From Anaerolineae bacterium (GTDB taxonomy: Bacteria; Chloroflexota; Anaerolineae; JAAYZQ01), in the NCBI GenBank assembly GCA_034434895.1, contig DAOTYI010000280.1, forward strand, positions 1 to 46,647: a stretch of 46,647 bases of DNA, written 5' to 3'. The position numbers were made by a program, and so were the translations under genes. Below, piece by piece: positions 3,663-22,494 of this stretch (positions within the stretch are counted from its first letter, which is position 1; every line of letters begins with the position of its first letter). The notes beneath the pieces are model-generated. The model ran no database searches, had not been told where the DNA came from, and saw nothing but the letters and a program-made list of their open reading frames with translations.

Positions 3663-4766
3663 ATGACCAGAGGCTATCCTCATCAGGTCAGCACTGCCCC
3701 TCTGGTAACGGTCTTTATCCTCTCCTTCAATGGTCGAAGGTATTTGGATGCCTGCCTGCACTCAGTCCTTGATCAGGACTTTCCAGAGGAACAATTCGAG
3801 ATCTTGCTGATAGACAACGGCTCGACCGATGGGTCGGCCGATTATGTGGCGGCCAACTATCCCCAGGTACGGCTGTTGCGCCACGGGCGAAATCTGGGTG
3901 TGGATGCCGGCCTCAATCAGGCCCGGGATCATGCCCGGGGGCAATACCTGGCCTATTTGAGCCAGGATGTGGTCGTGCATCGCCATTGGCTCTCGGCCCT
4001 GGTGGAAGCCGTGCAGAGCGACCCCCTGGCGCGCCTGGTCGCCAGCAACATCTATTTCCCCTGGTGGCCCGAATTCAATCCCCACGACCGGATTGGCTGG
4101 CCGGAGCGGGCTTATATCTGCGATCTGACCGGCTACGGGGTGCTTGACTACTATTCGATGCCGCTCACGGCCCTCTCGGCCCCCATCCCGGTCCTGGCCG
4201 CCGATACTGCGGCGAGCATGATTGACCGCCGCCTGGTGGACGAATTGGGCTACATCCTGGATGACGACTTTTTTATGTACGGCGATGTGATTGACCTCTG
4301 TCTGCGCATCAACTCCATCGGCCGCAAGGTGCTGTTTGTCCCCTGTTCGGTGGCCTATAACCACAGCGACTGGCAACTCAAGCTCAACCGCCGGACGTTG
4401 CTCAAGGCGCTGCGTTCCTCGCGCAACAACCTGCTGGCCTTTTACAAAGTGAGCTACACGGGTGAGTTCGTGGCCATGCTGCCCCGTCTGCTGCGAGGAC
4501 ACCTGCATCGTGGTCAGCAACATGGCCTGTCGCGCATGCGGAACCTGCTCTACGGCCTGGCCGCCGTGCCGATGGCCCTGTTGGGCCTGGGCCTGGCTGT
4601 GGCGCGGATGCCGCGCATTCAACCCAAGCGCCGCCTGGCCCTGCAAAAGCGGACGATGGGCCGGGGCTGGCTGATAGACCGCCTGCGCCACCCGGGCTGG
4701 CAGCCCGATCCCAACGTGTGGCTGGCCCGATCGGTCCCCTCCAGGAACCAGTCTGAAAACCACTAA
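3663..4766 (+). CDS. glycosyltransferase family 2
   Basis: The N-terminus VTVFILSFNGRRYLDACLHSVLDQDFPEEQFEILLIDNGSTDGS is the classic GT2 (GT-A) signature with a later DxD-like region. The C-terminal part is hydrophobic or amphipathic. The last codons (SENH-stop) lie inside a palindromic repeat. Confidence 0.9.
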   Translation: MTRGYPHQVSTAPLVTVFILSFNGRRYLDACLHSVLDQDFPEEQFEILLIDNGSTDGSADYVAANYPQVRLLRHGRNLGVDAGLNQARDHARGQYLAYLSQDVVVHRHWLSALVEAVQSDPLARLVASNIYFPWWPEFNPHDRIGWPERAYICDLTGYGVLDYYSMPLTALSAPIPVLAADTAASMIDRRLVDELGYILDDDFFMYGDVIDLCLRINSIGRKVLFVPCSVAYNHSDWQLKLNRRTLLKALRSSRNNLLAFYKVSYTGEFVAMLPRLLRGHLHRGQQHGLSRMRNLLYGLAAVPMALLGLGLAVARMPRIQPKRRLALQKRTMGRGWLIDRLRHPGWQPDPNVWLARSVPSRNQSENH

Positions 4767-5121: not shown

Positions 5122-6258
5122 ATGAACATTCAACTCTTCAAGCCTTTTATGGGTGAAGAGGAAATTCAGGCTGTAGCGGAGGTGCTCCGCTCCGGCTGGA
5201 TCGGCCTGGGGCCCAAGACCGCCGACTTTGAGCGGGCGTTTGCCGCTTTCCTGGGGGCGCCCTACGCCGTGGGCCTCAGCTCGGCGACGGCGGCACTGGA
5301 CCTGGCGGTGCGGTTGTTGCACATCAACCATGGCGACGAAGTGATCGTACCGGCCATGACCTTCGTATCCACTGCCCATGCCGTGGCCTACAATCTGGCC
5401 ACCCCCATCTTTGCCGATGTGGACCCCGATACCCTGCTGATTGACATCGAGGATGTGGCGCGCAAAATCACGCCCCGCACCCGGGCCATCATCCCGGTGC
5501 ACTATGGCGGGCGGCCGGTGGATATGGATCGCCTGCGCCAGGTGGCGGGCAAGATCCCCCTCATCGAGGATGCCGCCCATGCCTGCGGCGCCGAATACAA
5601 GGGCCGCAAGGCCGGCACGTTGGGGGACCTGGCCTGCTTTAGCTTTCACGCTGTCAAAAACCTGGCCACCGGCGATGGCGGCGCGTTGGTCACCTGCGAT
5701 CAGGCGTTGATGGAACGGGCCAAACGGCTGCGCTGGCTGGGCATTGACCGGGGCACCTGGGATCGCACCGGCGCCGATCGCTCCTACTGGTGGCAATATT
5801 TCGTGGACGAGATCGGACTCAAATGCCACATGAACGACATCGCGGCGGCCATCGGCCTGGTACAACTGCGCCGGCTGCCGGCCACCAACGCCCGTCGCCG
5901 ACAGATCGCCGAGATGTACACCGCCGGCCTGAGCGATCTCCCCTGGCTCCAGACGCCGCGTATGGACACCCCCGATTCGATCTCGTCGTGGCACATCTAC
6001 TGCATCCAGGTGGAAGGCCGGGACGATCTGAACGTTTATCTGCAGGAGAAAGGGATCGGCACCGGCGTCCATTATAAACCGATCCACCTCTACACCTGTT
6101 ATGGCAACCGGCCTCATCTGCCCCAGGCTGAGGCCGCCTTTGAACGGATCCTCTCCCTGCCCATGCATCCGGGGTTGAGCGACGAGGAGGTGGAGTATGT
6201 CATCGAGTCTATCCGCTCTTTTCAACCCCCGGCCCACCGTCGGGGAGGGACGGCGTGA
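5122..6258 (+). CDS. DegT/DnrJ/EryC1/StrS-family PLP-dependent sugar aminotransferase
   Basis: 378 aa. It has the family-typical GxKxxxFE..FA.FLG, SATAAL, VIVPAMTFVSTA, DAAHA.G and SFHAVKN (PLP lysine context) motifs. Confidence 0.92.
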   Translation: MNIQLFKPFMGEEEIQAVAEVLRSGWIGLGPKTADFERAFAAFLGAPYAVGLSSATAALDLAVRLLHINHGDEVIVPAMTFVSTAHAVAYNLATPIFADVDPDTLLIDIEDVARKITPRTRAIIPVHYGGRPVDMDRLRQVAGKIPLIEDAAHACGAEYKGRKAGTLGDLACFSFHAVKNLATGDGGALVTCDQALMERAKRLRWLGIDRGTWDRTGADRSYWWQYFVDEIGLKCHMNDIAAAIGLVQLRRLPATNARRRQIAEMYTAGLSDLPWLQTPRMDTPDSISSWHIYCIQVEGRDDLNVYLQEKGIGTGVHYKPIHLYTCYGNRPHLPQAEAAFERILSLPMHPGLSDEEVEYVIESIRSFQPPAHRRGGTA

Positions 6259-7022
6259 CCAACCCTCTGGATACTGCTCCTGAGCTGAAGGGCAAAGTCC
6301 TTCTCGTCACCGGCGGCTCGCGGGGGATCGGCGCCGAGATCGTGCGCCAGGCGGTGAGGCGGGGCGCAGCGGTTGCTTTCTGTGCCCGAACCCCCGGCCC
6401 GACGGTCCAGGAAGAAGCAGCGCAGGCAGGAGGGCGTCTGCTCGCTGTGCAGGCCGATGTCTCCCGTGAGGAAGAGGTCGAAGCCCTGTTCGACATCACC
6501 CGCCGCACCTTTGGCCGGGTGGATGTAGTGGTCAACAATGCGGGCATCAGCCGCGAGGCCCTGCTGGTCTCTCTTCCCCTCTCAACCTGGGACGAGGTCA
6601 TCGCCACCAACCTCACCGGGCCGTTCCTGGTCTCGCGCCGGGCGGTCCGGGAGTTCCTGGCGCAGGGCACAGGAGGGCGGATCCTCTCCATCGGCTCGGT
6701 GATGCAGGAGGGAGCGCCCTCCAATGCCAGCTATGCAGTCAGCAAGGGAGGGCTGATCGGCTTGACACAGGCCATCGCCCGGCAGTATGGCAGGCATGGC
6801 ATTTCTGCCTGTCTGATCGTCGTGGGGGCGGTTGAAACGGAGCTGACACGGCAGGTGCCGGAAGGGCTGAAACGGGCCGTCATCGAAGCCTGTCCCCAGA
6901 AACGGCAGGCAACGGCCGGTGAAGTGGCCTCTGTGGTCCTGTTCCTGGCTTCATCGCGGGCAGCTCTGGCCAACGGCCAGGCGATCTATGTCGGTGGGGG
7001 ATTGCGGGAGGTGATGCTCTGA
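6255..7022 (+). CDS. 3-oxoacyl-[ACP] reductase-like short-chain dehydrogenase (FabG-like)
   Basis: TGGSRGIG Rossmann motif, NNAGI, and Ser...YAVSKGG (YxxxK) catalytic motifs. The GTG start overlaps the upstream stop (GTGA). Confidence 0.85.
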   Translation: MTNPLDTAPELKGKVLLVTGGSRGIGAEIVRQAVRRGAAVAFCARTPGPTVQEEAAQAGGRLLAVQADVSREEEVEALFDITRRTFGRVDVVVNNAGISREALLVSLPLSTWDEVIATNLTGPFLVSRRAVREFLAQGTGGRILSIGSVMQEGAPSNASYAVSKGGLIGLTQAIARQYGRHGISACLIVVGAVETELTRQVPEGLKRAVIEACPQKRQATAGEVASVVLFLASSRAALANGQAIYVGGGLREVML

Positions 7023-7846
7023 TGGCGGAGGGGTTGCAGGGCGCAGTGGTCCTCATCACCGGCGGAACGCGGGGGCTGGGCAAGGCGATCGGGATCGAGT
7101 TCGCCCGCGCCGGCGCCCGGGTCTATCTCACCCATCGCTGGGGGAGCGTGGATGAAGAGGAGCTGGCCGCCGAGTTTCGGACCCTGGGCCTGCCTGTGCC
7201 ACGCATCGTCGAGGCGGACGCCGGCGACCCGGAGGCGACGCGGGAGCTGATGGCCCTGCTCCAGGCGGAGGTCGGCCGGCTGGATGTCGTGATCAGCAAC
7301 GTCGCCTTTGCCAAAGTGGTGCGCGATCTGGAAGATCTGAAAAGAAACGCCTTTGAACTGTCGCTCAGATATTCAGCCTGGCCGGTGGTGGACCTGGTTC
7401 AGGCGGCGCATCAGGCTTTCGGGCGTTATCCGCGGTATGTCATCGGCATCTCCAGCGGCGGTGGGGAGGTCTGCTTTGACGGCTATGACCTGGCCGGCGC
7501 TGCCAAGGCGGTGCTGGAAACGCTGTGCCGCTACCTGGCCTTTCGCCTCAAACGATACGGCGTGCGGGTCAACGTCGTCCGCCCCGGCCTGCTGGACACT
7601 GCCAGCGCCCGGGCAACATTTGGTGACGAGACGGTGGAAGCCATCCAGAGCCGGTTAGGAACCTGGCTGCTTGACCCGCGCCAGGTGGCCCGGGTGTGCG
7701 TGGCCCTCTGCTCCGGCTGGATGGATGCTGTGACCGGCCAGGTGATCGTCGTGGATGAAGGCTGGTCGCTGGTCAGCCCGATTGCGTACCTGACCGGCCG
7801 TGGCCTGCCGGGCGGGTTCCCGGAAGAGGAGGGACCGGCCTCATGA
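7022..7846 (+). CDS. enoyl-[ACP] reductase-like SDR (FabL/FabI type, Y-x6-K)
   Basis: TGGTRGLGKA Rossmann motif. ISSGGGEVCFDGYDLAGAAKAVLETLCRYLAFRL aligns by eye with B. subtilis FabL [34 protein letters not shown], which has the Tyr-x6-Lys spacing of enoyl reductases rather than YxxxK. The start overlaps the upstream stop by 1 nt. Confidence 0.72.
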   Translation: MAEGLQGAVVLITGGTRGLGKAIGIEFARAGARVYLTHRWGSVDEEELAAEFRTLGLPVPRIVEADAGDPEATRELMALLQAEVGRLDVVISNVAFAKVVRDLEDLKRNAFELSLRYSAWPVVDLVQAAHQAFGRYPRYVIGISSGGGEVCFDGYDLAGAAKAVLETLCRYLAFRLKRYGVRVNVVRPGLLDTASARATFGDETVEAIQSRLGTWLLDPRQVARVCVALCSGWMDAVTGQVIVVDEGWSLVSPIAYLTGRGLPGGFPEEEGPAS

Positions 7847-8355
7847 CCTGGGATCTGTCCGCCGAGGGGGTAGAACTCTTGCGCCGGGCAGCGAAGGAGC
7901 TGCTCCTGCCGCCGGTTGAGCGGGAAAAGGGGCCGTTTCTCGACCGGGCAGCCGTCGAAGCGCTGCTGCCGCACCGCGATCCGTTCCTGCTGGTGGACCG
8001 GGTTACCCGGCTTGACCTGGAGCGGGGCATCGTGGTCGCCCGCTATGATCTGAACCGGGCCGGGGCAGTCCTGGCCGGGCATTTTCCGGGCCGGCCGGTG
8101 TGGCCTGGCGTCTTGCAGGTGGAGGCCATTGCCCAGGCGGGCGGCCTGCTCCACCTGGCCCGGACCGGCCTTTCCGGGGCGGAAGGTGCTGCGCTGACGC
8201 ACATTTTCGCCGCCCGTTTCCTCCGGCCGGTCACGCCCGGCGGCGAGCTGGAGATCATAGCCCATCTTTGGGAAGAGGGGTTGTTGCTCACCGTCATCGG
8301 GCAATGTTTGCACCACAACAAGATCTGTTCAGTGGCTGCCGTAGCCATCCTTTGA
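7843..8355 (+). CDS. fabZ: 3-hydroxyacyl-[ACP] dehydratase (FabZ/FabA hot-dog fold)
   Basis: LLPHRDPFLLVDRV...GHFPGRPVWPGVLQVEAIAQ matches the FabZ signature LPHRYPFLLVDR...GHFP..PVMPGVL..EA.AQ, including the catalytic His and Glu. ATGA overlap with the upstream gene. Confidence 0.88.
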   Translation: MTWDLSAEGVELLRRAAKELLLPPVEREKGPFLDRAAVEALLPHRDPFLLVDRVTRLDLERGIVVARYDLNRAGAVLAGHFPGRPVWPGVLQVEAIAQAGGLLHLARTGLSGAEGAALTHIFAARFLRPVTPGGELEIIAHLWEEGLLLTVIGQCLHHNKICSVAAVAIL

Positions 8356-8392
8356 AGGAGACAGGTTCAGAATGACTCGTGAGGAAATTTTT
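8354..8392 (+). repeat. direct repeat copy 1: duplicated SD + ATG + first 7 codons of the ACP gene
   Basis: GAAGGAGACAGGTTCAGAATGACTCGTGAGGAAATTTTT is identical over 39 nt to 8506..8544. Confidence 0.95.
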
Positions 8393-8497
8393 CAGCCTAC
8401 CCTCCCGCAGGCTTGGAATCTGGTTGAAATCGTTCGTTGCGTCCGACTATTCAACGAATTTCTGCCTGAAACTGCTGCCAAGCCTGCGGGAGGGTGA
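8372..8497 (+). CDS. 41-codon ORF created by the duplicated ACP start (possible leader or decoy peptide; may not be functional)
   Basis: ATG 8372 sits behind the duplicated GAAGGAG SD. It reads MTREEIFQPTLPQAWNLVEIVRCVRLFNEFLPETAAKPAGG and stops at TGA 8495..8497, 8 nt before the second SD. Confidence 0.2.
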   Translation: MTREEIFQPTLPQAWNLVEIVRCVRLFNEFLPETAAKPAGG

Positions 8498-8505
8498 GCA
8501 GTTAC
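8393..8505. mobile_element. 113-nt palindromic (MITE-like) insertion between the two 39-nt direct repeats
   Basis: Perfect 18-bp inverted repeat ACCCTCCCGCAGGCTTGG (8399..8416) / CCAAGCCTGCGGGAGGGT (8478..8495) around a 61-nt AT-richer loop. No coding capacity. Confidence 0.55.
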
Positions 8506-8544
8506 GAAGGAGACAGGTTCAGAATGACTCGTGAGGAAATTTTT
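8506..8544 (+). repeat. direct repeat copy 2 (functional SD and start of the ACP gene)
   Basis: Identical 39 nt to 8354..8392, continuing into the intact ACP reading frame. Confidence 0.95.
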
Positions 8545-8775
8545 GCCGTGATCAAGGCCAACATTCAGGAGATCATCCCCGGCGCCAGGGGGAAAGAGAT
8601 CCTGGAATCGAATAGCATGCGCGATTTTGGCGCCGACTCTTTAGAGGTCGTCGAGGTGGTCTCGCGTTCGATGAAGCAGTTGCGCATCAAAGTGCCGCGC
8701 AGCGAGTTGTTGGAAGTGCGGGATCTGAAGGGCCTGCTGGATGTCTTTGAAAAAGCCGCGGCCCAAACCCGGTGA
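8524..8775 (+). CDS. acyl carrier protein (dedicated)
   Basis: 83 aa from ATG 8524 (SD GAAGGAG at 8506..8512). DFGADSLEVVEVV carries the DSL phosphopantetheine-attachment serine. The ORF-track start at 8494 (GTG) is less likely. Confidence 0.88.
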   Translation: MTREEIFAVIKANIQEIIPGARGKEILESNSMRDFGADSLEVVEVVSRSMKQLRIKVPRSELLEVRDLKGLLDVFEKAAAQTR

Positions 8776-9481
8776 GGGCCGGTTGCGGCTGGTCCTCCTG
8801 GCCGACCAGGGTCAGCCGCCTGACCTGCTCCTGATGAGGTTGTCGCCGGCCGAGCGCGAACAGGCCGAACAGCGCTGGCCGGCCGGGTGCCGTCGCCGCC
8901 AGTTCCTGTTGGGCCGGCTGGCTGCGCATCGGGCTGTGCAGCGGCTGCTGGCCGGCCGGGTGCCCCCCCCTTCGATCCAGGTGCTCAGCGGGCCGGCCGG
9001 CGAGCCGCGGGCGCGCGTGGACGGGGTTGAGGGCCTCGTCTCGGTCTCGTTGGCCCATTCAGGGCGGCTGGCGCTGGCCTGCGCCTGGCCGGGCGCCAGG
9101 TGCCACACCGGCGTGGACCTGGAACGGGTCCGCCCGACCGACGTGGCGCACAGCCGCTATGCCTTTTCGCGCCGGGAGCGTGCCCTGTTGGCCCGCGCCC
9201 CGGAGGGGCTGGCGCTGGCCGGACTCGCCGCCTGGACGGCCAAAGAGGCGGCCTGGAAGGCGTTGTGGCCCCATCAGCCGGTCAGCCCGGCCGGGGTCGA
9301 GATCCGGGCGCTGGACCTGGAACGGGGGTGCGCTGTGGTCCAGGCCCCGCCCGGCCGTTCGCAGTTTGAGGTGCGGCTCGGCCTCATCGCCGGCCCAGAC
9401 GGTCCCTATCTCCTGTCCATCGCCCAACTCACGCAATATGCAGCACAGAACCCATATGCGGGAGACGTCAACCATGAGTAA
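8741..9481 (+). CDS. 4'-phosphopantetheinyl transferase (Sfp-type)
   Basis: About 246 aa. GVDLERV and WTAKEAAWKAL match the PPTase motifs (G-x-D-x-E, W/F-x-x-K-E-A-x-x-K). The start is uncertain: ATG 8741 overlaps the ACP by 35 nt, and TTG 8783 is an alternative. Confidence 0.8.
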   Translation: MSLKKPRPKPGEGRLRLVLLADQGQPPDLLLMRLSPAEREQAEQRWPAGCRRRQFLLGRLAAHRAVQRLLAGRVPPPSIQVLSGPAGEPRARVDGVEGLVSVSLAHSGRLALACAWPGARCHTGVDLERVRPTDVAHSRYAFSRRERALLARAPEGLALAGLAAWTAKEAAWKALWPHQPVSPAGVEIRALDLERGCAVVQAPPGRSQFEVRLGLIAGPDGPYLLSIAQLTQYAAQNPYAGDVNHE

Positions 9482-10766
9482 CCAGAGCCACGCCGATGAG
9501 CACCGGGTCGTCGTCACCGGCCTGGGCATCATCACCCCCATCGGCGAGACCCCCGCCGGGTTCCGTGACTCCTTGCGGGCCGGCCGTTCCGGCATCACCC
9601 GCTGGAAGCGGATGGATGAACGCTGCCTGTCCAAGATCGGCGGTGACCTGAGCGATTTTGACCTGGCTGCCCATCTGGAGCGGGTTGGGGCGGGCTATCC
9701 GCCGCATCTGGTCGAGCGCGCTCACACCGTCCTGCGCGCCACGCCGCTCACAGGACGGCTGGCTGCGGCTGCTGCCCTGCAGGCCTTCGTGGATGCCGGG
9801 TTGCCTAATGCCGGGCTGGAGCCGGAGCGGGTGGCACACCTGTTCGGCGGCAACAACCTGAACATGAACTATTTCGTCCAGAACGTGCTGGAATTCAACG
9901 AGGATCCAGATTACATAGACCCTCTCCTGGGCGTGGTCCTGTGGGACACCGACATCCTGGGCAAGATCGGCGAGCTGTTGACGGTCAAAGGCCCCAACTA
10001 TATGATCGGCAATGCCTGTGCCAGTGGCAATGTGGCCCTGCTCAACGGCCTGGACCTGCTGCGCTCCGGGCGGGTGGACGCGGTGGTCGTTTCGGCAGCG
10101 ACCCAGGAGCTGGACCCCGTGGCGCTCCAGGGGTGGGCGCTGGTGGACGCGCTGGTGTGGCGGAATTTCGCCGACGAGCCGCAGCGGGCCAGCCGTCCCT
10201 GGGACGTGCGGCGCGAAGGCTTTGTGCCGGGCGAGGGGGCCGGGGCGGTCATCCTGGAGACGCTGGCCGGGGCGCGGCGGCGGGGTGCCCGTGTCTATGC
10301 CGAACTGCTGGGCGGCGCGGTCACGTGCGATGCCACCCGCCTGCCCCGACCTGTGGTCGAGGGGCAGGTGCGCGTCATGCGCCAGGCCTTGCAGGCTGCT
10401 GGTATCGCCCCGGAGCAGGTGAACTATATCAACGCCCATGCCACCTCGACCCTTGTGGGCGATGCCGTCGAGGTGGCAGCCATCAAGGAGGTATTTGGCG
10501 AGTATGCCCGCCGCATCCCGGTCAACGCCACCAAATCGCTGATCGGCCATTGCCTGACGGCTGCCGCCCTGGTCGAGTTCGTGGCCCTCCTGGTGCAGAT
10601 GGAGTATGGCTTTTTGCACCCGACTCTCAACCTGGAGCAACCGGATGAGGGCTTTGACCTGGATTTTGTGCCCAATGTGACACGCCCCTATCAAATTGAG
10701 GTGGGTATGTCCAACTCGTTCGGTTTTGGCGGGCTGAACGCCTGCGTGATAGTGGCCCGGGTGTAG
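9474..10766 (+). CDS. beta-ketoacyl-[ACP] synthase (KAS I/II-like), tandem copy 1
   Basis: 430 aa from ATG 9474 (overlaps the PPTase stop, ATGAGTAA). Complete Cys-His-His triad: GNACASGNVAL, NAHATSTLVGDAVE, TKSLIGHCL, and C-terminal SNSFGFGGLN. The ORF-track N-terminal extension from 9027 is an in-frame artefact across the PPTase gene. Confidence 0.92.
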   Translation: MSNQSHADEHRVVVTGLGIITPIGETPAGFRDSLRAGRSGITRWKRMDERCLSKIGGDLSDFDLAAHLERVGAGYPPHLVERAHTVLRATPLTGRLAAAAALQAFVDAGLPNAGLEPERVAHLFGGNNLNMNYFVQNVLEFNEDPDYIDPLLGVVLWDTDILGKIGELLTVKGPNYMIGNACASGNVALLNGLDLLRSGRVDAVVVSAATQELDPVALQGWALVDALVWRNFADEPQRASRPWDVRREGFVPGEGAGAVILETLAGARRRGARVYAELLGGAVTCDATRLPRPVVEGQVRVMRQALQAAGIAPEQVNYINAHATSTLVGDAVEVAAIKEVFGEYARRIPVNATKSLIGHCLTAAALVEFVALLVQMEYGFLHPTLNLEQPDEGFDLDFVPNVTRPYQIEVGMSNSFGFGGLNACVIVARV

Positions 10767-10819
10767 GACAGGGAAAACCGGACCCGGGCATCGGTGGGCT
10801 TTTGTTGAGGGAGTTGAGC

Positions 10820-12121
10820 ATGGCCGCAAACAGGCGAGAGGATGAGCGCCGGGTGGTGGTGACCGGCATGGGCGTCGTCACCGCCATCGGCGAAACCCTG
10901 ACCGAATATCGGGACTCGCTTCAGGCCGGGCGTTCGGGCATCACCCGCTGGAAGCAGATGGACGGGCGCATCTATTCCAGGATCGGCGGCGACCTGAGCG
11001 ATTTCGACCTGAAGGCCCACCTGGCCCACGTCGGGGCGGACTATCCGCCTGACCTGGTGGAGCAGGCGCTGCGGCTGCTGCGCGCCACCCCGCTCCCCGG
11101 CCGGCTGACGGCCGCAGCCGACCTGCAGGCCTTTCTCGACGCCGGCCTGGAGGGGGCGCCCTATGACCCGGAGCGGTTCGGGCATGTGCTGGCCGGGCAT
11201 AACCTGAGCACCCGCTATATCTACGACAACGTGTTGACATTGCAGGAGGAGCCGGAGTTCATTGACCCGCTCTACGCCCTGATGTTCCTGGACACCGATG
11301 TGCTGTCGGTTGGCTCGGAGCTGCTGGGCTTGAAAGGCCCCAGTTTTTCCGTCGGCGGGGCGTGCGCCAGCGGCAATGTGGCGCTGCTGATGGCGCTGGA
11401 CCTGCTCCGTGCTGGCCGGGCCGAGGCGGTGTTGGTCAGCGGCGGCTCGGTGGACCTGGACCCGGTGGTGCTCCAGAGTTGGGCCATCATGGATGCCATC
11501 TCGGTGCGCTCCTTCAACGACGAACCGTGGCGGGCCAGCCGCCCCTTCGATGTCCGGCGCGAAGGCTTTGTCCCGGCGGAAGGGGCCGGGGCGGTGGTGC
11601 TGGAGACGCTGGCCGGGGCGCGGCGGCGCGGTGCCCGCATCCATGCCGAACTGTTGGGCGGGGCATCGGCCTCCGACGCCTCGCGGCTGCCCAAACCCAA
11701 CGCCGAGGGGCAGGCGCGGGCCATGCGCCTGGCCCTCCAGGATGCGCAGGTCGCCCCGGAACAGGTCAACTATATCAACGCCCATGCCACTTCTACGGTG
11801 CTGGGCGACCTTGTCGAGGTGCAGGCCATCAAAGAGCTGTTTGGCGCGCACGCCCGCCGCATCCCGGTCAACGCCACCAAGTCTCTTCTCGGCCACTGCC
11901 TGACTTCGGCCGGCATCGTCGAGCTGATCGCTACGGTGTTGCAGATGGAGTATGGCTTTCTGCACCCGACCCTCAACCTGGAGGAACCGGAACCGGGCCT
12001 GGACCTGGATTTTGTGCCCCATCAGGCGCGACCCTATCAGATCGAGGTGGCCCTGTCCAACGCCTTTGGCTTTGGTGGGCTGAACACCTGCATCGTCGTC
12101 GGCAGGGCGGACTGGCTCTAA
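10820..12121 (+). CDS. beta-ketoacyl-[ACP] synthase (KAS I/II-like), tandem copy 2
   Basis: ATG 10820 with GAGGGAG upstream. GGACASGNVAL, NAHATSTVLGDLVE, TKSLLGHCL and SNAFGFGGLN, so the active-site Cys is retained and this is not a chain-length-factor type. Roughly two-thirds identical to copy 1 by eye. Confidence 0.92.
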   Translation: MAANRREDERRVVVTGMGVVTAIGETLTEYRDSLQAGRSGITRWKQMDGRIYSRIGGDLSDFDLKAHLAHVGADYPPDLVEQALRLLRATPLPGRLTAAADLQAFLDAGLEGAPYDPERFGHVLAGHNLSTRYIYDNVLTLQEEPEFIDPLYALMFLDTDVLSVGSELLGLKGPSFSVGGACASGNVALLMALDLLRAGRAEAVLVSGGSVDLDPVVLQSWAIMDAISVRSFNDEPWRASRPFDVRREGFVPAEGAGAVVLETLAGARRRGARIHAELLGGASASDASRLPKPNAEGQARAMRLALQDAQVAPEQVNYINAHATSTVLGDLVEVQAIKELFGAHARRIPVNATKSLLGHCLTSAGIVELIATVLQMEYGFLHPTLNLEEPEPGLDLDFVPHQARPYQIEVALSNAFGFGGLNTCIVVGRADWL

Positions 12122-12122
12122 A

Positions 12123-12225
12123 AGTTTGTCTGAAAACCACCAGGACACAAAGGACACCAAAGGCACCATGCGCTTTTTATTCGTTTCCTTCGTGTTCCTT
12201 TGTGGCCTTTGTGGTAAGCTTTTCA
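12123..12225. mobile_element. palindromic element copy C, flanked by a 13-nt direct repeat GACTGGCTCTAAA (12110..12122 and 12226..12238)
   Basis: The arms GTCTGAAAACCACCAGGACACAAAGGACACCAAAGGCAC (12128..12166) and CGTGTTCCTTTGTGGCCTTTGTGGTAAGCTTTTCAGAC (12191..12228) are near-perfect reverse complements. The first direct-repeat copy contains the KS2 stop codon. Confidence 0.65.
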
Positions 12226-12248
12226 GACTGGCTCTAAAGGAAACGGGA

Positions 12249-13163
12249 ATGGGTATCGCTTTTCTCTTTGCCGGACAGGGCAGCCAGGTCGTGGGCATGG
12301 GCAGCGACCTGGCCGCCTCGTGCGAAAAGTGCCGGCGGCTGTTTGCGGCTGCCGACGCGACCCTGGGCTTTTCTCTGTCCCGGATCATGGCCGAAGGACC
12401 GGCGGGAGAGCTGCGGCGCACGGCGATCACCCAGCCGGCCGTGTTGACCCTCAGCGTCGCCCAGGCGCGCCACCTGATGTCGCTGGGGGTCGTCCCGGAT
12501 ATGCTGGCCGGGCATAGTCTGGGCCAGAGCTCGGCCCTGGTGATCGCCGGTGTGCTGGACTTTGAGGCGGCAGTATGGCTTGTGGCTGAACGGGGCCGGC
12601 TGATGCAAGAGACGGTGCCGGAGGGGGAAGGGGCGATGATGGCCATTGTCGGGCTGGAAGGGGAGAGGGTTGAGGCCGCCTGCCGGGCGGCGCAGTCCCT
12701 GGGGGCGGTGTCGGTCGCCGGTTACAATGCCCCCCGCCAGACGGTGATCTCAGGGGCGCGCGCGGCGGTCGAGGCGGCAGCCGGGTTTTGCGAGGAGGAG
12801 GGCGCGGCGGCGGTGCCCCTGGCCGTAAGCGCGCCGTTTCACTGTGACCTGCTGCGGCCGATGGTGCCGGCCTTTGCCGCGCTGGCGGCCTGTGTGCCTT
12901 TTGCCGATCCGCGCCTGCCGGTGATTGACAATGTCACGGCGCGCCCCCTGGCCGATGCAGCCGCCGCCCGACAATCGTTGATCGAGCAGATTACGGCCCC
13001 GGTCCGCTTTGAGGAGAGCCTGCGCTATTTGATGGATGTCGGGATAGATTGCTTTGTGCAGTGTGGTCCGGGGGATAGCCTGCTGGCTTTTGCCCGACGG
13101 GTCAGCCGCAAGGCAAAACTCCTGACCTTCGAGGAGGCGGTCCAGGATGCCTGTGCGGTTTGA
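12249..13163 (+). CDS. fabD: malonyl CoA-[ACP] transacylase
   Basis: From ATG 12249: IAFLFAGQGSQ, the GHSLGQSSAL nucleophile elbow, and the SAPFHCDLL histidine motif. The ORF-track start at 12126 reads through the palindromic element and is rejected. Confidence 0.93.
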   Translation: MGIAFLFAGQGSQVVGMGSDLAASCEKCRRLFAAADATLGFSLSRIMAEGPAGELRRTAITQPAVLTLSVAQARHLMSLGVVPDMLAGHSLGQSSALVIAGVLDFEAAVWLVAERGRLMQETVPEGEGAMMAIVGLEGERVEAACRAAQSLGAVSVAGYNAPRQTVISGARAAVEAAAGFCEEEGAAAVPLAVSAPFHCDLLRPMVPAFAALAACVPFADPRLPVIDNVTARPLADAAAARQSLIEQITAPVRFEESLRYLMDVGIDCFVQCGPGDSLLAFARRVSRKAKLLTFEEAVQDACAV

Positions 13164-13824
13164 TGGCCAGGGCTGGGTGGTGGTCGGCGGCGCCGAGGGG
13201 ATCGGGCAGGAGGTGGCCCTGCTGGCGGCCCGGCGCGGCGCAACGGTCCTCTGTAGCGGACGGCCGGGGAGCGAAGCGGCGGCGGCCGACCTCCTGGCGG
13301 CTGCCCGCCAGGCGGGGGTGGCGGAGCGGCTCCTGTTCGTCGTCGCCGATCCGGCGTCGCCGGAGGAGGTGGAACGGCTGTTCGACCAGGCCGGGGAGCA
13401 GTTCTTCACCCTGCATGTGCTGGTGTTCAACGGCGCAGACGGACCGGTCCTGGCCGACGGACCTCTGGCCGAGACCTCGCTGGCGGAGTGGAATCAAAAC
13501 CTGGCCGTCCACCTGCGCGGGCCGTTCCTGGTCGTGCAGCGGGTGTTGCAGGAGTTCCTGGCCGGCGGCGAGGGAGGGCGGATTGTGTGCCTCATCCCGG
13601 CCGGGACTGAGGGCCTGGGCCAGGCCGTGGCCGGGTCGGCGCTGCGTTCCCTGGTGCGCAGCGTGGCCAAGGAGTATGGACGGCGGGGGATCGCCTGCAA
13701 CGCCGTACTCGTGCCGGATGAGCCGGCCCAGGCCGTCGCCGAGACGGTGCTGTTTCTGGCCTCGGCAGAAGCTTCATTTGTGAACGGCGAGGTGCTGAAT
13801 CTGGAGAGGAGGAGGGATGATTAA
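13147..13824 (+). CDS. SDR-fold protein lacking the catalytic Tyr/Lys pair (probable non-catalytic or divergent partner)
   Basis: Rossmann GGAEGIG and an NGAD (NNAG-like) motif are present. The expected S...YxxxK segment reads IPAGTEGLGQAVAGSALRSLVRSVAKE, with no Tyr or Lys in register. Confidence 0.6.
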   Translation: MPVRFDGQGWVVVGGAEGIGQEVALLAARRGATVLCSGRPGSEAAAADLLAAARQAGVAERLLFVVADPASPEEVERLFDQAGEQFFTLHVLVFNGADGPVLADGPLAETSLAEWNQNLAVHLRGPFLVVQRVLQEFLAGGEGGRIVCLIPAGTEGLGQAVAGSALRSLVRSVAKEYGRRGIACNAVLVPDEPAQAVAETVLFLASAEASFVNGEVLNLERRRDD

Positions 13825-14353
13825 AGGCAAACGGGTGATTCTCAGGCCGGTGGAGGAGCGTGACCTGCCGCTGCTGGCCCGCTGGCGCAACGATCCGGAA
13901 AACCGGCGTTTCTTTTTCTCCCCGTTCCTCATCAACCCGGGGGGGCAGAAAAAGTGGTACGAGGAACTGCTGGCCGACCGCAACCGCATCATCCTGATGA
14001 TTGAGACCGTGGAGGGCAAGACGGTGGGCATGATCGGCCTGGACAAGATTGACTGGCGCAATCAAGAGGCGGAGAACGGCATCTTTTTGCTCGACCCGGA
14101 GGAGCGGGGCCACGGCTATGCCGAGGAGGCGGGCCTGTTGATGATCGAGTATGCCTTCAACGAGCTGAACCTGCACCGCCTGTACGCCGTCATTTACGAT
14201 TTCAATCACGGCGTGATTGAGATGAGCAGGCTGTTTGGCTTCAAGCAAGAGGGGGTACTGCGCCAGGCGGCCTTTACCGGCGGTCGGTTTCACGACAAAG
14301 TGATCATGGGTCTGCTGCGGGAGGAGTGGCAGGCCGACCAGGTGGGAGAGTAG
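13817..14353 (+). CDS. GNAT-family N-acyltransferase (RimJ/RimL-like, Acetyltransf_3-like)
   Basis: 178 aa. RVILRPVEERDLPLLARWRNDPE... and ...GHGYAEEA...YAF.ELNLHRLYA.I..FN are typical of this GNAT subgroup. Confidence 0.8.
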   Translation: MIKGKRVILRPVEERDLPLLARWRNDPENRRFFFSPFLINPGGQKKWYEELLADRNRIILMIETVEGKTVGMIGLDKIDWRNQEAENGIFLLDPEERGHGYAEEAGLLMIEYAFNELNLHRLYAVIYDFNHGVIEMSRLFGFKQEGVLRQAAFTGGRFHDKVIMGLLREEWQADQVGE

Positions 14354-14356
14354 CCG

Positions 14357-15610
14357 TTGACGCTGGGAACTGACCTGCCGGCTGCCCCGGCGGTGCGTGT
14401 GCACGCCCTGGGGGCTTTCCGGCACAGCAACTATCGCCTCTATCTTCTGAGCACCGTGGTGTCGCAGATCGGCACCTGGATGCAATACCTGGCCGAAGGG
14501 TTGCTCATCTACCGCCTGACCCAGGCCCCTCTGGCGCTGGGGTTGCTGGGCTTTTTGCCGCTGCTGCCTCTGGTGCCCCTCATGTTCCTCGGCGGTGCCC
14601 TGGCCGACCGGTTGCCCCGGCAGAAATATCTGATCTGGGTGCAGATGGCCGCCGTGTTGCCGCCCTTGTGGCTGGCCGCCCTCACCTGGACCGGCCGGGT
14701 GCAGGTGTGGCACGTGATCCTGGTCGAGATACTGATCCAGAGCCTGGCCACCCTGGACAAACCGGCCCGCCAGGCGCTGATCGTGGACACGGTGGAGATG
14801 CAGGACCTGGATGCAGGTGTGGCGCTCAGCGCCTCGGTGTTCAACCTGTCGCGGGTGATCGGCCCGGCTCTGGGTGGGTTGCTGGTCGCCTGGGCCGGCG
14901 AAGGGGTCTGTTTTGCCCTGAACGCGGTCAGTTTTCTGGCTTCGGGGATCGCCTTGCGGTTGCTGCGTTTGCCCTCCTCGGAGGCAGCGGCCCGTAGCCG
15001 GTCGCCGGAGGGCGGGATGCTGGGCGGGGTGCGCTATCTGGCGCGTGAACGGTTCCTGGCTGCCGCTCTGGGGTTGTCGCTGCTGGTCAGCCTGTTCGTC
15101 ATGCCCTATCAGCGGTTTCTACCGGTCTTTGCTCTGGACATCCTGGACGTGGGAGAGGTGGGGTTGGGGGTGCTGAACGCCCTGGCCGGGTTGGGGGCGG
15201 TGTTGGGCGCCGTTGCCCTGGCCGGCGTGGTGAGCCGCTGGCCGGGTCGGCGTGGCAAACTGGCTTGGGGGTTGGCGTTGCTGGTCGGGCCGCTGCTGGC
15301 CCTGTTTGCCCTTGCCCGCTCTGCCTGGCTGTCGGGCCTGATGGTCATGCTGGTCGGCGCGGGGGTGGTGGCCGTGCGCAGCCTGGCCTTTACCCTGGTC
15401 CAGGTCTATGTGCCGGACGAGTTGCGGGGGCGGACACTCAGCATTGTGATTCTGCTATCGGTCGGCGCCGTGCGGGTGGGCGAGCTGGCCGTCGGTTTCC
15501 TGGCTTCTCACGCCGGCGTGACCCCGCCCCTGCTGTTGGCAGCAGGGGCCTGCCTGCTCGGCACCGCTGCCCTGGGGCTGCTGGTGCCCCGGCTGCGCCA
15601 CGCTCCCTGA
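14357..15610 (+). CDS. MFS transporter (MFS_3/EntS-like architecture)
   Basis: 417 aa, about 12 hydrophobic helices. The N-terminal [23 protein letters not shown] is typical of this MFS subgroup. TTG start 4 nt after the GNAT stop. Confidence 0.8.
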
Positions 15611-22460: not shown

Positions 22461-22494
22461 GGCAGGAGGGAAGAGGCAGGAGGCAGGAGGCAAG

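What the first reader, a model, noticed from the sequence alone, without database searches (positions are those of the whole stretch)
5122..15610. Complete dedicated reducing type II FAS-like module embedded in a glycan locus
Eleven genes with overlapping or near-abutting stop/start codons (GTGA at 6255, TGATG at 7022, ATGA at 7843, ATGAGTAA at 9474, and others) encode a sugar aminotransferase followed by KR (FabG-like), ER (FabL-like, Y-x6-K), DH (FabZ-like), ACP, Sfp-type PPTase, two active KS, FabD, a degenerate SDR, a GNAT and an MFS. Every activity for fully reducing C2 elongation is present with its own carrier protein and its own PPTase. There is no KAS III (FabH) initiator and no thioesterase. 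That profile fits an elongation module that extends a pre-made acyl primer, as in the rhizobial acpXL-fabZXL-fabF2XL-fabF1XL cluster that builds the very-long-chain fatty acid of lipid A. It does not fit housekeeping FAS or a type II PKS (an ER is present and both KS keep the Cys). The flanking DegT aminotransferase and GNAT suggest that the product is N-linked to an amino sugar, giving a lipoglycan anchor or glycolipid. I know of no described system with this exact gene order joined to the downstream TPR/AP-superfamily block.
Basis: partly seen in the sequence, partly recalled or inferred. Interest (0 to 1): 0.72.

Follow-up and report, generated by a model that had tools for sequence, protein, structure and literature searches.

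The report
Sugar-acylating fatty-acid module in glycan locus
An uncultured Anaerolineae (Chloroflexota) bacterium carries, inside a cell-surface polysaccharide locus, a private fatty-acid/polyketide-type acyl-chain factory fused to a sugar aminotransferase and an N-acyltransferase, most likely to hang an unusual acyl group on an amino sugar; this is a new variant of a known strategy, not a new kind of system.

Summary
Twelve co-directional, mostly overlapping genes at 5122-15610 encode a DegT aminotransferase, KR, FabL-like ER, FabZ/ApeI-like DH, ACP, Sfp-type PPTase, two Cys-His-His KS, FabD, a catalytically dead SDR, a GNAT and an MFS transporter. They sit in a Wzx/Wzy glycan locus.

- The module is accessory, not housekeeping. 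Both KS fall outside FabF-type KS (100/100 bootstrap) and inside the clade of KS from HMG-synthase beta-branching cassettes. The ACP best matches the acpK-type model.
- Eight related loci keep DegT, ACP, KS1, KS2, GNAT and MFS with GT2 and AP-superfamily genes.
- DegT and GNAT resemble the PseC/PseH pair, which fits N-acylation of a nucleotide amino sugar.
- "Complete reducing FAS" is not a family trait. The ER occurs only in this window's lineage, four loci lack it, and one lacks KR, DH, ER, AT and PPTase.
- The "no initiator, so it extends a pre-made primer, acpXL-like" argument is weak. This KS clade can plausibly self-prime by decarboxylating malonyl-ACP.

Chain length is unresolved. Known parallels are the Pseudomonas viosamine island, NodFE and tunicamycin TunC/TunK. 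I rate it a new variant of a known kind, of moderate interest.

The parts
3663..4766 (+). GT2 glycosyltransferase (GT-A fold plus one C-terminal TM helix). It is a conserved partner of the module.
   Evidence: Pfam Glycos_transf_2. Present in L084, L089, L172, L173 and L174 next to or inside the module. AF2 model pLDDT 93, with best PDB folds being GT-A ppGalNAc-transferases. A distant homologue is named WbbL-like. One TM at residues 295-313.
5122..6258 (+). DegT/ArnB/PseC-like PLP sugar aminotransferase
   Evidence: PF01041 E=1e-119. NCBIfam ArnB 332 bits and PseC 320 bits, both below cut-off. PDB best hits are TlmJ and ArnB. 78-88% identical in all related loci.
6255..7022 (+). 3-ketoacyl-ACP reductase (active SDR, YAVSK motif)
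   Evidence: FabG models score 192 bits against a cut-off of 298.
7022..7846 (+). FabL-like enoyl-ACP reductase (Y-x6-K). This is a lineage-specific addition.
   Evidence: NCBIfam best hit is FabL, 125 bits against a cut-off of 328. PDB best hit is 3OIC FabL. Present only in the window, L084 and L174; absent in L173, L136, L001, L172 and L089. 63-67% identical to the ER of HMGS-cassette clusters.
7843..8355 (+). FabZ/ApeI-like 3-hydroxyacyl-ACP dehydratase
   Evidence: PF07977. Precomputed PF22818 ApeI-like hits on orthologues. PDB best hits are FabZ. Catalytic His and Glu are visible in the sequence.
8524..8775 (+). Dedicated acyl carrier protein (DSL motif), AcpK-like
   Evidence: PF00550. 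Best NCBIfam hit is NF005502, 62 bits against a cut-off of 79; AcpP TIGR00517 scores only 21 bits. 63-85% identical in relatives.
8741..9481 (+). Sfp-type phosphopantetheinyl transferase (start codon uncertain)
   Evidence: PF01648 plus PF17837. GVDLE and WTAKEAAWK motifs. Absent in L001, L172 and L089.
9474..10766 (+). KS1, a ketosynthase with the Cys-His-His triad; a derived paralogue in the PksF-type clade
   Evidence: The KS1 clade has 100/100 bootstrap support. 36% identical to FabF-type KS.
10820..12121 (+). KS2, a ketosynthase with the Cys-His-His triad; the paralogue closest to HMGS-cassette KS (64-66%)
   Evidence: Present in three copies in L172 and L001.
12246..13163 (+). Malonyl-CoA:ACP transacylase (FabD)
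   Evidence: TIGR00128 scores 292.8 against a cut-off of 260.9. GHSLG motif.
13147..13824 (+). Conserved pseudo-SDR: no catalytic Ser/Tyr/Lys, degenerate NAD motif, lid deleted. Probably a non-catalytic partner of the KR.
   Evidence: Alignment with five orthologues, the KR and FabG.
13817..14353 (+). GNAT N-acyltransferase (PseH/SpeG-like), the proposed off-loading enzyme
   Evidence: PF13302. PseH TIGR03585 scores 70 bits against a cut-off of 93. PDB hits are SpeG family. It follows KS2 directly in L089, and there are two copies in L084.
14357..15610 (+). MFS_3 transporter (EntS/LplT-related). It always follows the GNAT, with GT2 in between in L172.
   Evidence: PF05977 E=8e-49. NCBIfam TIGR00900, EntS, and a weak LplT-domain hit. 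Roughly 12 hydrophobic segments.
16123..19040 (+). PRK07208-family FAD oxidoreductase (16123-17574) and a 489-aa exported protein of unknown family (17571-19040). These are conserved downstream neighbours.
   Evidence: NF005548 scores 573 bits against a cut-off of 389. Orthologues are present in L084, L173 and L089.
19037..24171 (+). Three tandem AP-superfamily (PF01663) proteins. At least one paralogue accompanies the module in every related locus long enough to show it.
   Evidence: L084 has a 317-aa PF01663 gene between AT and the dead SDR. L089 has one between DegT and GT2.

Best explanation
The block is an accessory type II FAS/PKS-like acyl-ACP factory. It has been recruited into a Wzx/Wzy-type surface-glycan locus of an Anaerolineae bacterium to make an N-acylated amino sugar.

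Proposed steps (all inferred from family membership and gene linkage unless marked as shown):
1. DegT aminates an NDP-4-keto sugar.
2. The PPTase activates the private ACP, and FabD loads malonate onto it.
3. One PksF-type KS, most likely KS2, decarboxylates malonyl-ACP to acetyl-ACP. This supplies the primer, which is why no FabH is needed.
4. KS1, and KS2 if it is iterative, condense the primer with malonyl-ACP.
5. The KR (probably paired with the dead SDR), the DH and, in this lineage only, the FabL-like ER set the oxidation state of the chain.
6. The GNAT transfers the acyl group from the ACP to the sugar amine. This is why no thioesterase is needed.
7. The GT2 installs the N-acyl sugar on the growing glycan or its lipid carrier.

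The MFS and the AP-superfamily proteins act later, in export/flipping or nucleotide/phosphodiester processing. Their exact roles are unknown.

Shown by tool results: gene content, active-site residues, KS phylogeny and conserved linkage.

Not determined: chain length. Gain and loss of KR, DH, ER and extra KS copies among orthologous loci suggests that lineages differ in the length and saturation of this acyl decoration. In this window the chain would be saturated.
For: - Domain and motif assignments.
- The locus is conserved in eight independent contigs with a constant core of DegT, GT2, ACP, KS1, KS2, GNAT, MFS and PF01663 genes: window, L174, L084, L173, L136, L001, L172 and L089.
- DegT and GNAT occur only in this context. 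They are absent from the other contexts of related KS, namely the HMGS cassettes and the L088 type.
- DegT's nearest curated families and structures are nucleotide-sugar 4-aminotransferases: ArnB, PseC and TlmJ. The GNAT model nearest to its cut-off is PseH, the enzyme that acylates the PseC product.
- KS1 and KS2 lie within the HCS-cassette KS clade, 100/100 against FabF-type KS, with 58-66% identity to cassette KS against 36-37% to FabF. One such relative, P0108, sits in a canonical HMGS-ECH-ECH-ACP-KS cassette within a PKS/NRPS cluster.
- The ACP best matches the AcpK-type model. In the bacillaene cassette, AcpK and PksF provide the acetyl nucleophile (PMC7501309).
- GNAT overlaps or abuts the last FAS-type gene: ATGATTAA with the dead SDR here, and it overlaps KS2 in L089.
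- Precedents exist for the logic. The P. syringae viosamine island (vioA aminotransferase, vioS KS, vioR KR, acp, vioB acyltransferase) gives N-(3-hydroxybutanoyl)-viosamine (PMC3927599). In tunicamycin biosynthesis the N-acyltransferase TunC is essential and tunK/tunL are proposed to support acylation from the fatty acid pool (PMC6105854).
- Codon GC3 of all module genes matches the flanks, so the module is resident and not a recent island.
Against: - There is no biochemical evidence. The organism is uncultured.
- The GNAT family normally uses acyl-CoA, and its best PDB relatives are polyamine acetyltransferases. Use of acyl-ACP is inferred only from the lack of any other off-loading enzyme.
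- DegT, GNAT, KS and ACP all score below the curated cut-offs of the families they resemble.
- All cassette-type KS here keep the active-site Cys, so "decarboxylase only" cannot be read from the sequence.
- No 4,6-dehydratase is part of the conserved core. The only candidate lies 29 kb downstream (44412-45470).
- The EntS-like MFS is more typical of small-molecule export.
- The roles of the AP-superfamily proteins are unexplained.
Confidence: 0.55

Rival explanations
1. The two KS extend a pre-made housekeeping acyl-ACP, as NodFE or acpXL-fabF1XL/2XL do, to give a long or very long chain. That chain is N-linked to an amino sugar, producing a membrane-anchoring glycolipid or lipoglycan anchor.
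For: - There is no FabH in the cluster.
- A full KR/DH/ER set with its own ACP, PPTase and AT is present in this window.
- The minimal relative L089 keeps only ACP+KS+KS, like NodF/NodE, which rely on housekeeping enzymes (PMC9048898).
- ER-less relatives would give alpha,beta-unsaturated chains, as NodFE do.
- The MFS has weak similarity to the LplT lysolipid-flippase domain.
Against: - The KS are not FabF-like. They belong to the cassette/PksF-type clade.
- The ACP is AcpK-like and not AcpP-like.
- No LpxXL-type or NodA-type acyltransferase is present.
- FabF residue Ile108, which lines the acyl pocket, is Asn in both KS and in the whole clade. This does not suggest a long hydrophobic channel, although that reading is weak.
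- Nothing indicates chain length.
Confidence: 0.2
2. The core genes (DegT, ACP, KS, GNAT, MFS) form a small-molecule biosynthetic cluster. It would make an aminated polyketide or lipoamine, N-acetylated by the GNAT and exported by the EntS-like MFS, and it merely travels with glycan genes.
For: - The MFS_3/EntS-like transporter and the SpeG-like GNAT are typical of secondary-metabolite export and self-protection.
- The KS clade is otherwise found in PKS/NRPS and other specialised clusters.
- A Sfp-type PPTase is present.
Against: - GT2 is translationally coupled to DegT (L084) or lies inside the module (L089, L172). PF01663 genes are interleaved with it.
- In every locus the module is embedded in the same Wzx/Wzy, TPR and AP-superfamily context.
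- The characterised relatives of DegT are almost all sugar or cyclitol aminotransferases.
Confidence: 0.12
3. This is functional juxtaposition only. DegT and GNAT make an ordinary N-acetyl amino sugar using acetyl-CoA. The FAS-like genes make a separate lipid, for example an O-acyl substituent or a lipid primer attached by an unidentified enzyme.
For: - The nearest GNAT families, PseH and SpeG, use acetyl-CoA.
- L084 has two GNATs.
- No direct evidence links the GNAT to the ACP.
Against: - No other acyltransferase, thioesterase or acyl-CoA ligase occurs in any of the eight loci to off-load the ACP.
- The GNAT is always the gene after the last FAS-type gene, and overlaps it in the window (SDRx/GNAT) and in L089 (KS2/GNAT).
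Confidence: 0.1
4. It is the organism's housekeeping fatty acid synthase.
For: FabD passes its equivalog cut-off, and all elongation activities are present in this window.
Against: - KS, ACP, KR, DH and ER all fall far below the Fab equivalog cut-offs.
- The KS are outside FabF-type clades, 100/100.
- Other Chloroflexota carry ordinary FabF (36-38% identical) in fab contexts. This includes the annotated fabF of Thermomicrobium roseum.
- Orthologous loci lack ER, or lack KR, DH, ER and AT.
- The operon is coupled to DegT, GNAT and GT2.
Confidence: 0.02

Closest known systems
Pseudomonas syringae viosamine island (vioA, vioS, vioR, acp, vioB, vioT) and the P. aeruginosa PAK flagellin glycosylation island
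   Same: A DegT-family sugar aminotransferase, a private ACP, a KS, a KR, an N-acyltransferase and a glycosyltransferase are clustered to make an N-acyl (3-hydroxybutanoyl) amino sugar for a surface glycan (PMC3927599).
   Different: - The KS there is KAS III type; here it is a pair of PksF-clade KS.
- Its acyltransferase (VioB) is not the PseH/SpeG-like GNAT seen here. The fold difference is from my own knowledge and was not tested.
- It has no AT, PPTase, DH, ER, dead SDR, MFS or AP-superfamily genes.
- Its target is flagellin glycan, not a Wzx/Wzy polymer.
HMG-CoA-synthase (HCS) beta-branching cassette of PKS pathways (AcpK, PksC, PksF, PksG, PksH, PksI)
   Same: The ACP, the AT and both KS are the sequence relatives of the cassette's donor ACP, AT and KS. 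The ER-DH-ACP-KS gene order of stand-alone cassette clusters (L086, L087, L009) is kept here.
   Different: There is no HMG synthase and no ECH1/ECH2. The KS is duplicated. The module is coupled to sugar aminotransferase, GNAT and GT2 genes instead of a PKS assembly line.
Rhizobial NodF/NodE/NodA (Nod-factor N-acylation)
   Same: A private ACP and KS make a special, often alpha,beta-unsaturated, acyl chain that is N-linked to an amino sugar (PMC9048898). The minimal relative L089 (ACP+KS+KS+N-acyltransferase) has the same logic.
   Different: NodE is a FabF/B-like KS that extends housekeeping intermediates. NodA is a different acyltransferase family. The amine there comes from deacetylation by NodB, not from transamination.
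Rhizobial acpXL-fabZXL-fabF2XL-fabF1XL-adhA2XL-lpxXL cluster
   Same: A private ACP, a dehydratase and two tandem KS dedicated to an envelope glycolipid (PMC11901934).
   Different: - The product there is ester-linked to lipid A by LpxXL. No such acyltransferase is present here.
- That cluster has no aminotransferase, GNAT, AT, ER or PPTase.
- The KS here are of the PksF type.
- The host here is an Anaerolineae bacterium, and no lipid A genes are in view.
Tunicamycin TunC/TunK/TunH
   Same: An N-acyltransferase (TunC) puts a fatty acyl chain on an amino-sugar nucleoside. TunK supports acylation from the fatty acid pool, and a UDP-sugar pyrophosphatase (TunH) is essential (PMC6105854). This parallels the GNAT, ACP and PF01663 genes here.
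   Different: Tunicamycin is a nucleoside antibiotic pathway with a radical-SAM C-C coupling step. It has no KS, KR, DH or ER and no glycan polymerisation genes. The family assignments of TunC (GNAT) and TunH (PF01663) are from my own knowledge and were not tested here.
Aryl-polyene and other reducing type II PKS
   Same: Discrete KS, KR, an ApeI-like DH and an ACP. The ER-less relatives with four KS (L172, L001) resemble polyene-forming systems (PMC8358021, title and abstract as listed).
   Different: There is no KS-CLF pair, since every KS keeps its Cys. There is no aryl starter machinery. An ER is present in this window.

Membership tests
Housekeeping type II FAS (fab operon) | The elongating KS is a FabF/FabB equivalog. 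| tested here: not met
   TIGR03150 scores 338 and 341 bits against a cut-off of 494. Both KS fall outside FabF-type KS with 100/100 bootstrap support. They are 34-38% identical to E. coli and Chloroflexota FabF.
Housekeeping type II FAS (fab operon) | AcpP-type ACP, with FabG, FabZ and FabI/L equivalogs. | tested here: not met
   AcpP TIGR00517 scores 21 against 70. FabG TIGR01830 scores 192 against 298. FabZ NF000582 scores 88 against 113. FabL NF005975 scores 125 against 328.
Housekeeping type II FAS (fab operon) | FabD malonyl transacylase. | tested here: met
   TIGR00128 scores 292.8 against 260.9.
Housekeeping type II FAS (fab operon) | It is the only fab gene set in the genome. | not testable with these tools
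Indirect evidence: orthologous loci lacking ER, or lacking KR, DH, ER and AT, cannot be housekeeping.
Rhizobial acpXL VLCFA cluster | An LpxXL-type lipid A acyltransferase and the adhA2XL dehydrogenase lie in the cluster. | tested here: not met
   No such Pfam or NCBIfam hit appears on any plus-strand gene of the window. Cluster composition is taken from PMC11901934.
Rhizobial acpXL VLCFA cluster | The KS are orthologous to FabF1XL/FabF2XL. | not tested
   No reference sequences were reachable, because those genes are chromosomal in rhizobia. The best plasmid-borne KS of any genus is 37.8% identical.
HCS beta-branching cassette | A donor ACP, an AT and a PksF-type KS. | tested here: inconclusive
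   The best NCBIfam hits are NF005490 (399 and 411 bits against 445) and NF005502 (62 against 79), all below cut-off. The tree places both KS inside the cassette-associated clade at 99-100/100.
HCS beta-branching cassette | An HMG-ACP synthase and the ECH1/ECH2 pair. | tested here: not met
   There are no PF01154, PF08540 or PF00378 hits in the window. tblastn with the HMGS and ECH of L087 finds nothing in the glycan-type loci.
Aromatic type II PKS (KS-CLF) | The second KS is a chain-length factor that lacks the active-site Cys, and cyclases/aromatases are present. | tested here: not met
   Both KS have the Cys-His-His triad. There are no cyclase hits.
Pseudaminic acid pathway (PseB, C, H, G, I, F) | PseC and PseH equivalogs. 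| tested here: not met
   PseC scores 320 against 423.5, and PseH scores 70 against 93. The resemblance is in how the pair works, not in membership.
Pseudaminic acid pathway (PseB, C, H, G, I, F) | A NeuB-type synthase (PseI) and a CMP-transferase (PseF). | tested here: not met
   No such hit appears on any scanned gene of the window.
Arn (Ara4N) pathway | An ArnB equivalog together with ArnA, ArnC and ArnT. | tested here: not met
   ArnB scores 332 against 631. GT2 has no ArnC hit, and its fold search gives no GtrB or DPMS-type match in the top 50.
Dedicated N-acyl-amino-sugar modules (viosamine-island type; a functional class) | A sugar aminotransferase, a private ACP, a KS, a KR and an N-acyltransferase are clustered with a GT. 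| tested here: met
   All are present and co-conserved. The KS and the acyltransferase belong to different protein families than in the Pseudomonas example.
Dedicated N-acyl-amino-sugar modules (viosamine-island type; a functional class) | The product is an N-acylated amino sugar in a glycan. | not testable with these tools
   This needs chemistry or enzymology.

The most novel reading that the evidence does not exclude
The module makes a single-chain N-acyl amino-sugar (phospho)glycolipid. This would be a lipid-X/lipid-A-like anchor in a Chloroflexota lineage that lacks LPS. An AP-superfamily pyrophosphatase would cleave the nucleotide, by analogy with LpxH or TunH. The MFS would flip the lipid, by analogy with LtaA or LplT. 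The Wzy-type polymer would then be built on it or tethered to it by the membrane+TPR giant protein. This would be a previously unknown way of anchoring surface polysaccharide, with chain length and saturation tuned by plug-in KS, KR, DH and ER genes.
Probability: 0.12. Interest if true: 0.8.

Novelty: new variant of a known kind. Interest (0 to 1): 0.48.

Why it matters
If the reading is right, it has three consequences.
- A ketosynthase/ACP pair normally used to feed polyketide beta-branching has been re-used to decorate cell-surface sugars in Anaerolineae, an abundant, mostly uncultured group whose envelope chemistry is almost unknown.
- The family forms a natural series: no reductive genes; KR+DH; KR+DH+ER; and one or three copies of the second KS. 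This could be used to learn how chain length and saturation are programmed in discrete KS systems.
- It predicts N-acyl amino sugars or glycolipids that could serve as lipid or glycan biomarkers.

It does not open a long-standing question, and the general strategy already has precedents.

Tried and rejected
1. Und-P-sugar synthase, flippase and GT-C three-component model for GT2, MFS and the membrane proteins. The AF2 model of GT2 is good (pLDDT 93). Its best PDB folds are generic GT-A ppGalNAc-transferases, with no GtrB or DPMS-type hit in the top 50. The model is not supported, although it is not excluded.
2. Structure of the AP-superfamily protein PD1 from a 4-sequence alignment of window paralogues. 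The model was unusable (pLDDT 45), so no fold search was run. PDB sequence searches for PD1 and the MFS found nothing.
3. Reading chain length from KS pocket residues. The whole clade has Asn at the FabF Ile108 position and differs from FabF throughout the pocket. KS1 and KS2 cannot be assigned to short or long substrates from sequence.
4. Looking up the window's own FabD in the assembly index. The exact protein is not on record.
5. Rfam scan of the window. There were no hits, so the spacers hold no riboswitch or other known RNA.
6. Promoter and terminator scan. Promoter-like sites lie before GT2 (3566-3594, 11/12 match) and before DegT (4926-4954). There is no convincing terminator inside the module. 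These are consensus matches only.
7. Recent horizontal acquisition of the ER or of the module. GC3 of all module genes is 0.73-0.85, like the flanks. Only the GxxExxY insert deviates, at 0.60.
8. Searching metagenomes for KS1 orthologues to enlarge the locus set. Most 73-79% hits belong to a different cluster type (L088 type), so they do not inform this system.
9. Literature search for a described Chloroflexi N-acyl amino-sugar or FAS cluster. Nothing was found.

Full report
OBSERVATION. The window is GC-rich (0.59-0.71), and every convincing gene lies on the plus strand.
- a DegT/DnrJ/EryC1 aminotransferase (E=1e-119);
- an active SDR ketoreductase (YAVSK);
- a FabL-like SDR with Y-x6-K (best NCBIfam hit FabL; best PDB hit 3OIC);
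- a FabZ-type hot-dog dehydratase with His and Glu (PDB FabZ), whose orthologues carry precomputed ApeI-like hits;
- an ACP with the DSL motif;
- an Sfp-type PPTase;
- two ketosynthases, each with Cys-His-His;
- a FabD that passes its equivalog cut-off;
- a truncated SDR without catalytic residues;
- a GNAT;
- an MFS_3 transporter.

The quoted overlapping junctions are all present. Some details need correction. There are twelve genes, not eleven. The ACP starts at 8524, KS2 at 10820 and FabD at 12246. The rest of the window is a Wzx/Wzy-type glycan locus. It holds a 10-TM protein, GT2, a PRK07208-family FAD oxidoreductase, an exported 489-aa protein, three tandem AP-superfamily (PF01663) genes and a fourth further on, and a 3103-aa protein with about 12 TM segments (DUF6077) followed by TPR arrays. 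It also holds MurJ/Wzx, Wzy_C, a beta-helix protein, two GT4, an NDP-sugar epimerase/dehydratase and WecG/TagA. RuvB at 1021-2040 is 85-86% identical to proteins that NCBI names as Anaerolineae.

IS IT HOUSEKEEPING FAS? It almost certainly is not.
- Apart from FabD, every component scores far below the curated Fab equivalog cut-offs: FabF 338 and 341 against 494, AcpP 21 against 70, FabG 192 against 298, FabZ 88 against 113, FabL 125 against 328.
- The best KS model is NF005490 (399 and 411 bits against 445) and the best ACP model is NF005502. From my own knowledge these are the B. subtilis PksF and AcpK models.
- I built a neighbour-joining tree of 120 KS taken from the loci and protein hits, and a 56-sequence bootstrap set. 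Both window KS fall in a clade made of KS that sit next to HMG-synthase cassettes. This clade separates from E. coli FabF and from FabF-type KS in fab contexts in 100 of 100 replicates.
- Mean identity is 36-37% to FabF-type KS and 58-64% to the Chloroflexota cassette KS. KS2 is the paralogue closer to the cassette KS (64-66%). KS1 forms its own 100/100 clade.
- One cassette relative, P0108, lies in a textbook HMGS-ECH-ECH-ACP-KS cassette inside a PKS/NRPS cluster of a Caldilineaceae MAG.
- No plasmid-borne KS of any genus exceeds 37.8% identity. The annotated fabF of the Chloroflexota species Thermomicrobium roseum is 37.6% identical.

I could not scan the source genome for a second fab set. 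The orthologous loci described next cannot be housekeeping FAS, which argues by orthology that this one is not either.

COMPARATIVE ANATOMY. Neighbourhood look-ups and a metagenome scan gave eight independent loci of this type.
- L174 is in NCBI assembly GCA_034435455.1 and its RuvB is 90% identical. It has the locus at the same chromosomal place: ruvB, GT2, DegT, KR, ER, DH, ACP, PPTase, KS, KS, AT, dead SDR.
- L084 (KS1 87%) has the same order. It adds a 317-aa PF01663 gene between AT and the dead SDR, and a second GNAT. MFS, the PRK07208 oxidoreductase, the unknown protein and PF01663 genes follow with spacers of about 10 nt.
- L173 and the fragment L136 lack the ER.
- L001/L005 (a Chloroflexia MAG) and L172 lack both the ER and the PPTase. 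They carry KS1 plus three KS2-like genes, all intact in L172. L172 also places GT2 between GNAT and MFS, and has GHMP-kinase, SIS and methyltransferase genes upstream.
- L089 has only DegT, PF01663, GT2, ACP, KS1, KS2, GNAT and MFS. These are followed by the same unknown protein, a PF01663 gene and a 3116-aa giant protein, with Wzy, PF01663 and MurJ upstream. Only 20 kb of its 34-kb contig was readable.

The conserved core is therefore DegT, GT2, ACP, KS1, KS2, GNAT, MFS and at least one PF01663 protein. KR, DH, AT and the dead SDR are usual. The ER is confined to the window's own lineage. The ER (63-67%), DH (54-58%), ACP (67-71%) and KS are all related to the ER-DH-ACP-KS quartet of stand-alone HMGS-cassette clusters: L086, L087, and L009 of Kibdelosporangium. 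The module probably derives from such a cluster by loss of HMGS/ECH and duplication of the KS. This is inference.

DegT and GNAT are absent from all other contexts of related KS. The dead SDR has lost the catalytic Ser, Tyr and Lys and its substrate lid in all five orthologues. The syntenic SDR of L009 is intact. It is a conserved pseudo-enzyme, plausibly a structural partner of the KR; that too is inference.

WHAT IT MOST LIKELY DOES. DegT's nearest curated families and solved structures are nucleotide-sugar 4-aminotransferases: ArnB, PseC and TlmJ. It has the HxxK lysine. Relative to the cut-offs, the GNAT is nearest to PseH, the enzyme that N-acylates the PseC product. By PDB sequence it resembles SpeG-type amine acetyltransferases. 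No thioesterase, acyl-CoA ligase or other acyltransferase occurs in any of the eight loci. The GNAT is always the gene after the last FAS-type gene; it overlaps the dead SDR here and KS2 in L089.

The simplest reading is as follows. The GNAT off-loads the ACP-bound acyl chain onto the amine that DegT creates on an NDP-sugar. The GT2 then installs that sugar. GT2 is a GT-A fold with one C-terminal TM helix and distant WbbL-like relatives. Because the KS and ACP are of the PksF/AcpK type, the missing FabH is not evidence for a pre-made primer. In the cassette, the KS and the donor ACP generate the acetyl unit (PMC7501309). The step of malonyl-ACP decarboxylation is from established knowledge of these cassettes. 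KS2 may therefore prime and KS1 condense.

Chain length cannot be read from the sequences. The whole clade has Asn where FabF has Ile108 and differs throughout the pocket. The pattern among loci suggests that lineages vary the length and saturation of one acyl decoration: no reductive genes; KR+DH; KR+DH+ER; and one or three KS2 copies. This window would make a saturated chain. The MFS and the PF01663 proteins are constant partners whose roles remain open. The MFS could export or flip. The PF01663 proteins could process nucleotides or phosphodiesters. A model of PD1 failed.

RIVALS. Four alternatives remain.
Support comes from the NodFE-like minimal locus, the full reducing set here and the weak LplT similarity of the MFS. 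The KS and ACP lineage, and the absence of LpxXL- or NodA-type transferases, count against an acpXL-like membership.
- A secreted aminated polyketide (about 0.12) fits the EntS-like MFS and the SpeG-like GNAT. It does not fit the interleaved GT2 and PF01663 genes or the invariant glycan context.
- Mere juxtaposition (about 0.1) leaves the ACP without an off-loading enzyme.
- Housekeeping FAS is very unlikely (0.02).

COMPARISON WITH KNOWN SYSTEMS. In function, the closest precedent is the Pseudomonas viosamine island. There an aminotransferase, KAS III, KR, ACP, N-acyltransferase and GT make N-(3-hydroxybutanoyl)-viosamine on flagellin (PMC3927599). NodF/NodE/NodA (PMC9048898) and tunicamycin TunC/TunK/TunH (PMC6105854) are further examples of private acyl supply for N-acylation of amino sugars. 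In sequence, the parts descend from polyketide beta-branching cassettes and resemble reducing type II PKS (ApeI-like DH). The system is not a member of the Fab, acpXL, Pse, Arn, HCS-cassette or KS-CLF families, because defining features were tested and not met (see the membership table). I found no paper that describes this architecture.

VERDICT. The system is a new variant of a known kind (dedicated acyl-ACP supply for N-acyl amino sugars), built from an unexpected enzyme lineage and showing informative modular variation. Interest is moderate (0.48). It is attractive for enzymology and for Chloroflexota envelope biology. However, the central chemistry (chain length, acyl-ACP use by the GNAT, the sugar substrate) is entirely inferred.

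Noticed in passing
window 8355-8544: A 112-nt element (8394-8505) with 21-nt terminal inverted repeats (8396-8416 and 8478-8498) is inserted exactly at the start of the ACP gene. It is flanked by a 39-nt direct duplication of the ribosome-binding site plus the first 7 codons (8355-8393 = 8506-8544). The upstream copy opens a 41-codon decoy ORF (ATG 8373 to TGA 8498). Orthologous loci have only 15-28 nt between the DH and the ACP. A similar palindrome lies at 24172-24245.
   Followed up: partly
window 12122-12245 and 4767-5121: These are low-GC (0.45-0.46) spacers. They contain palindromic motifs of the CCACCAAGACACCAAG / GGACACAAAGGACACC type, between KS2 and FabD and upstream of DegT. L084 has 4 nt between KS2 and FabD, so they look like small inserted repeat elements.
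   Followed up: partly
window 15685-16104: A 139-aa GxxExxY protein gene (TIGR04256, 156 bits) with a deviant GC3 of 0.60 is inserted between the MFS and the PRK07208 oxidoreductase. It is flanked by GAGAACGCAGAG and CTCTGCGTCCTC inverted motifs. L084 has a 10-nt spacer at this position.
   Followed up: partly
window 19037-24171 and 35175-36809: There are four large cytoplasmic AP-superfamily (PF01663) paralogues. PD2 and PD3 are recent tandem duplicates (93% over the first 300 nt) with a repeated purine-rich junction (GGCAGGAGGGAAGAGG...). Their real starts are probably at ATG 20748 and ATG 22495. No PDB sequence relative was found and their function is unknown. One paralogue is interleaved with the acyl module in L084 and in L089.
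   Followed up: partly
window 24246-33557: A 3103-aa protein has about 12 N-terminal TM segments (DUF6077) followed by about 2500 residues of TPR repeats. An orthologue of 3116 aa follows the same genes in L089. It may be a GT-C-like extracytoplasmic transferase or a scaffold.
   Followed up: no
L088, L093-L135, L139 (metagenome contigs): Most KS that are 73-79% identical to KS1 sit in a different, widespread soil cluster. That cluster has a FAAL-ACP-aminotransferase(class I/II) fusion, an NAD-epimerase-like gene, the KS, an ABC-2 transporter, two SDR, an ACP, a double hot-dog DH and a second KS pair only 26-34% identical to the window's KS (possibly a KS/CLF pair; active sites not examined). 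Such high identity across unrelated contexts suggests that KS1-type enzymes do one fixed job, perhaps priming.
   Followed up: partly
L086, L087, L009, L016, L006: These are stand-alone HMG-synthase cassettes with ER-DH-ACP-KS plus KR, ECH and AT but no PKS megasynthase nearby (L086, L087). In Kibdelosporangium and Actinokineospora they are combined with PUFA-synthase-like genes and a class I/II aminotransferase. The products are unknown.
   Followed up: no
window 2044-3510: A 488-aa protein with about 10 TM segments has no Pfam or NCBIfam hit. It lies between ruvB and GT2. In L174 it is replaced by a 162-aa ORF. It may be a GT-C-type glycosyltransferase.
   Followed up: no
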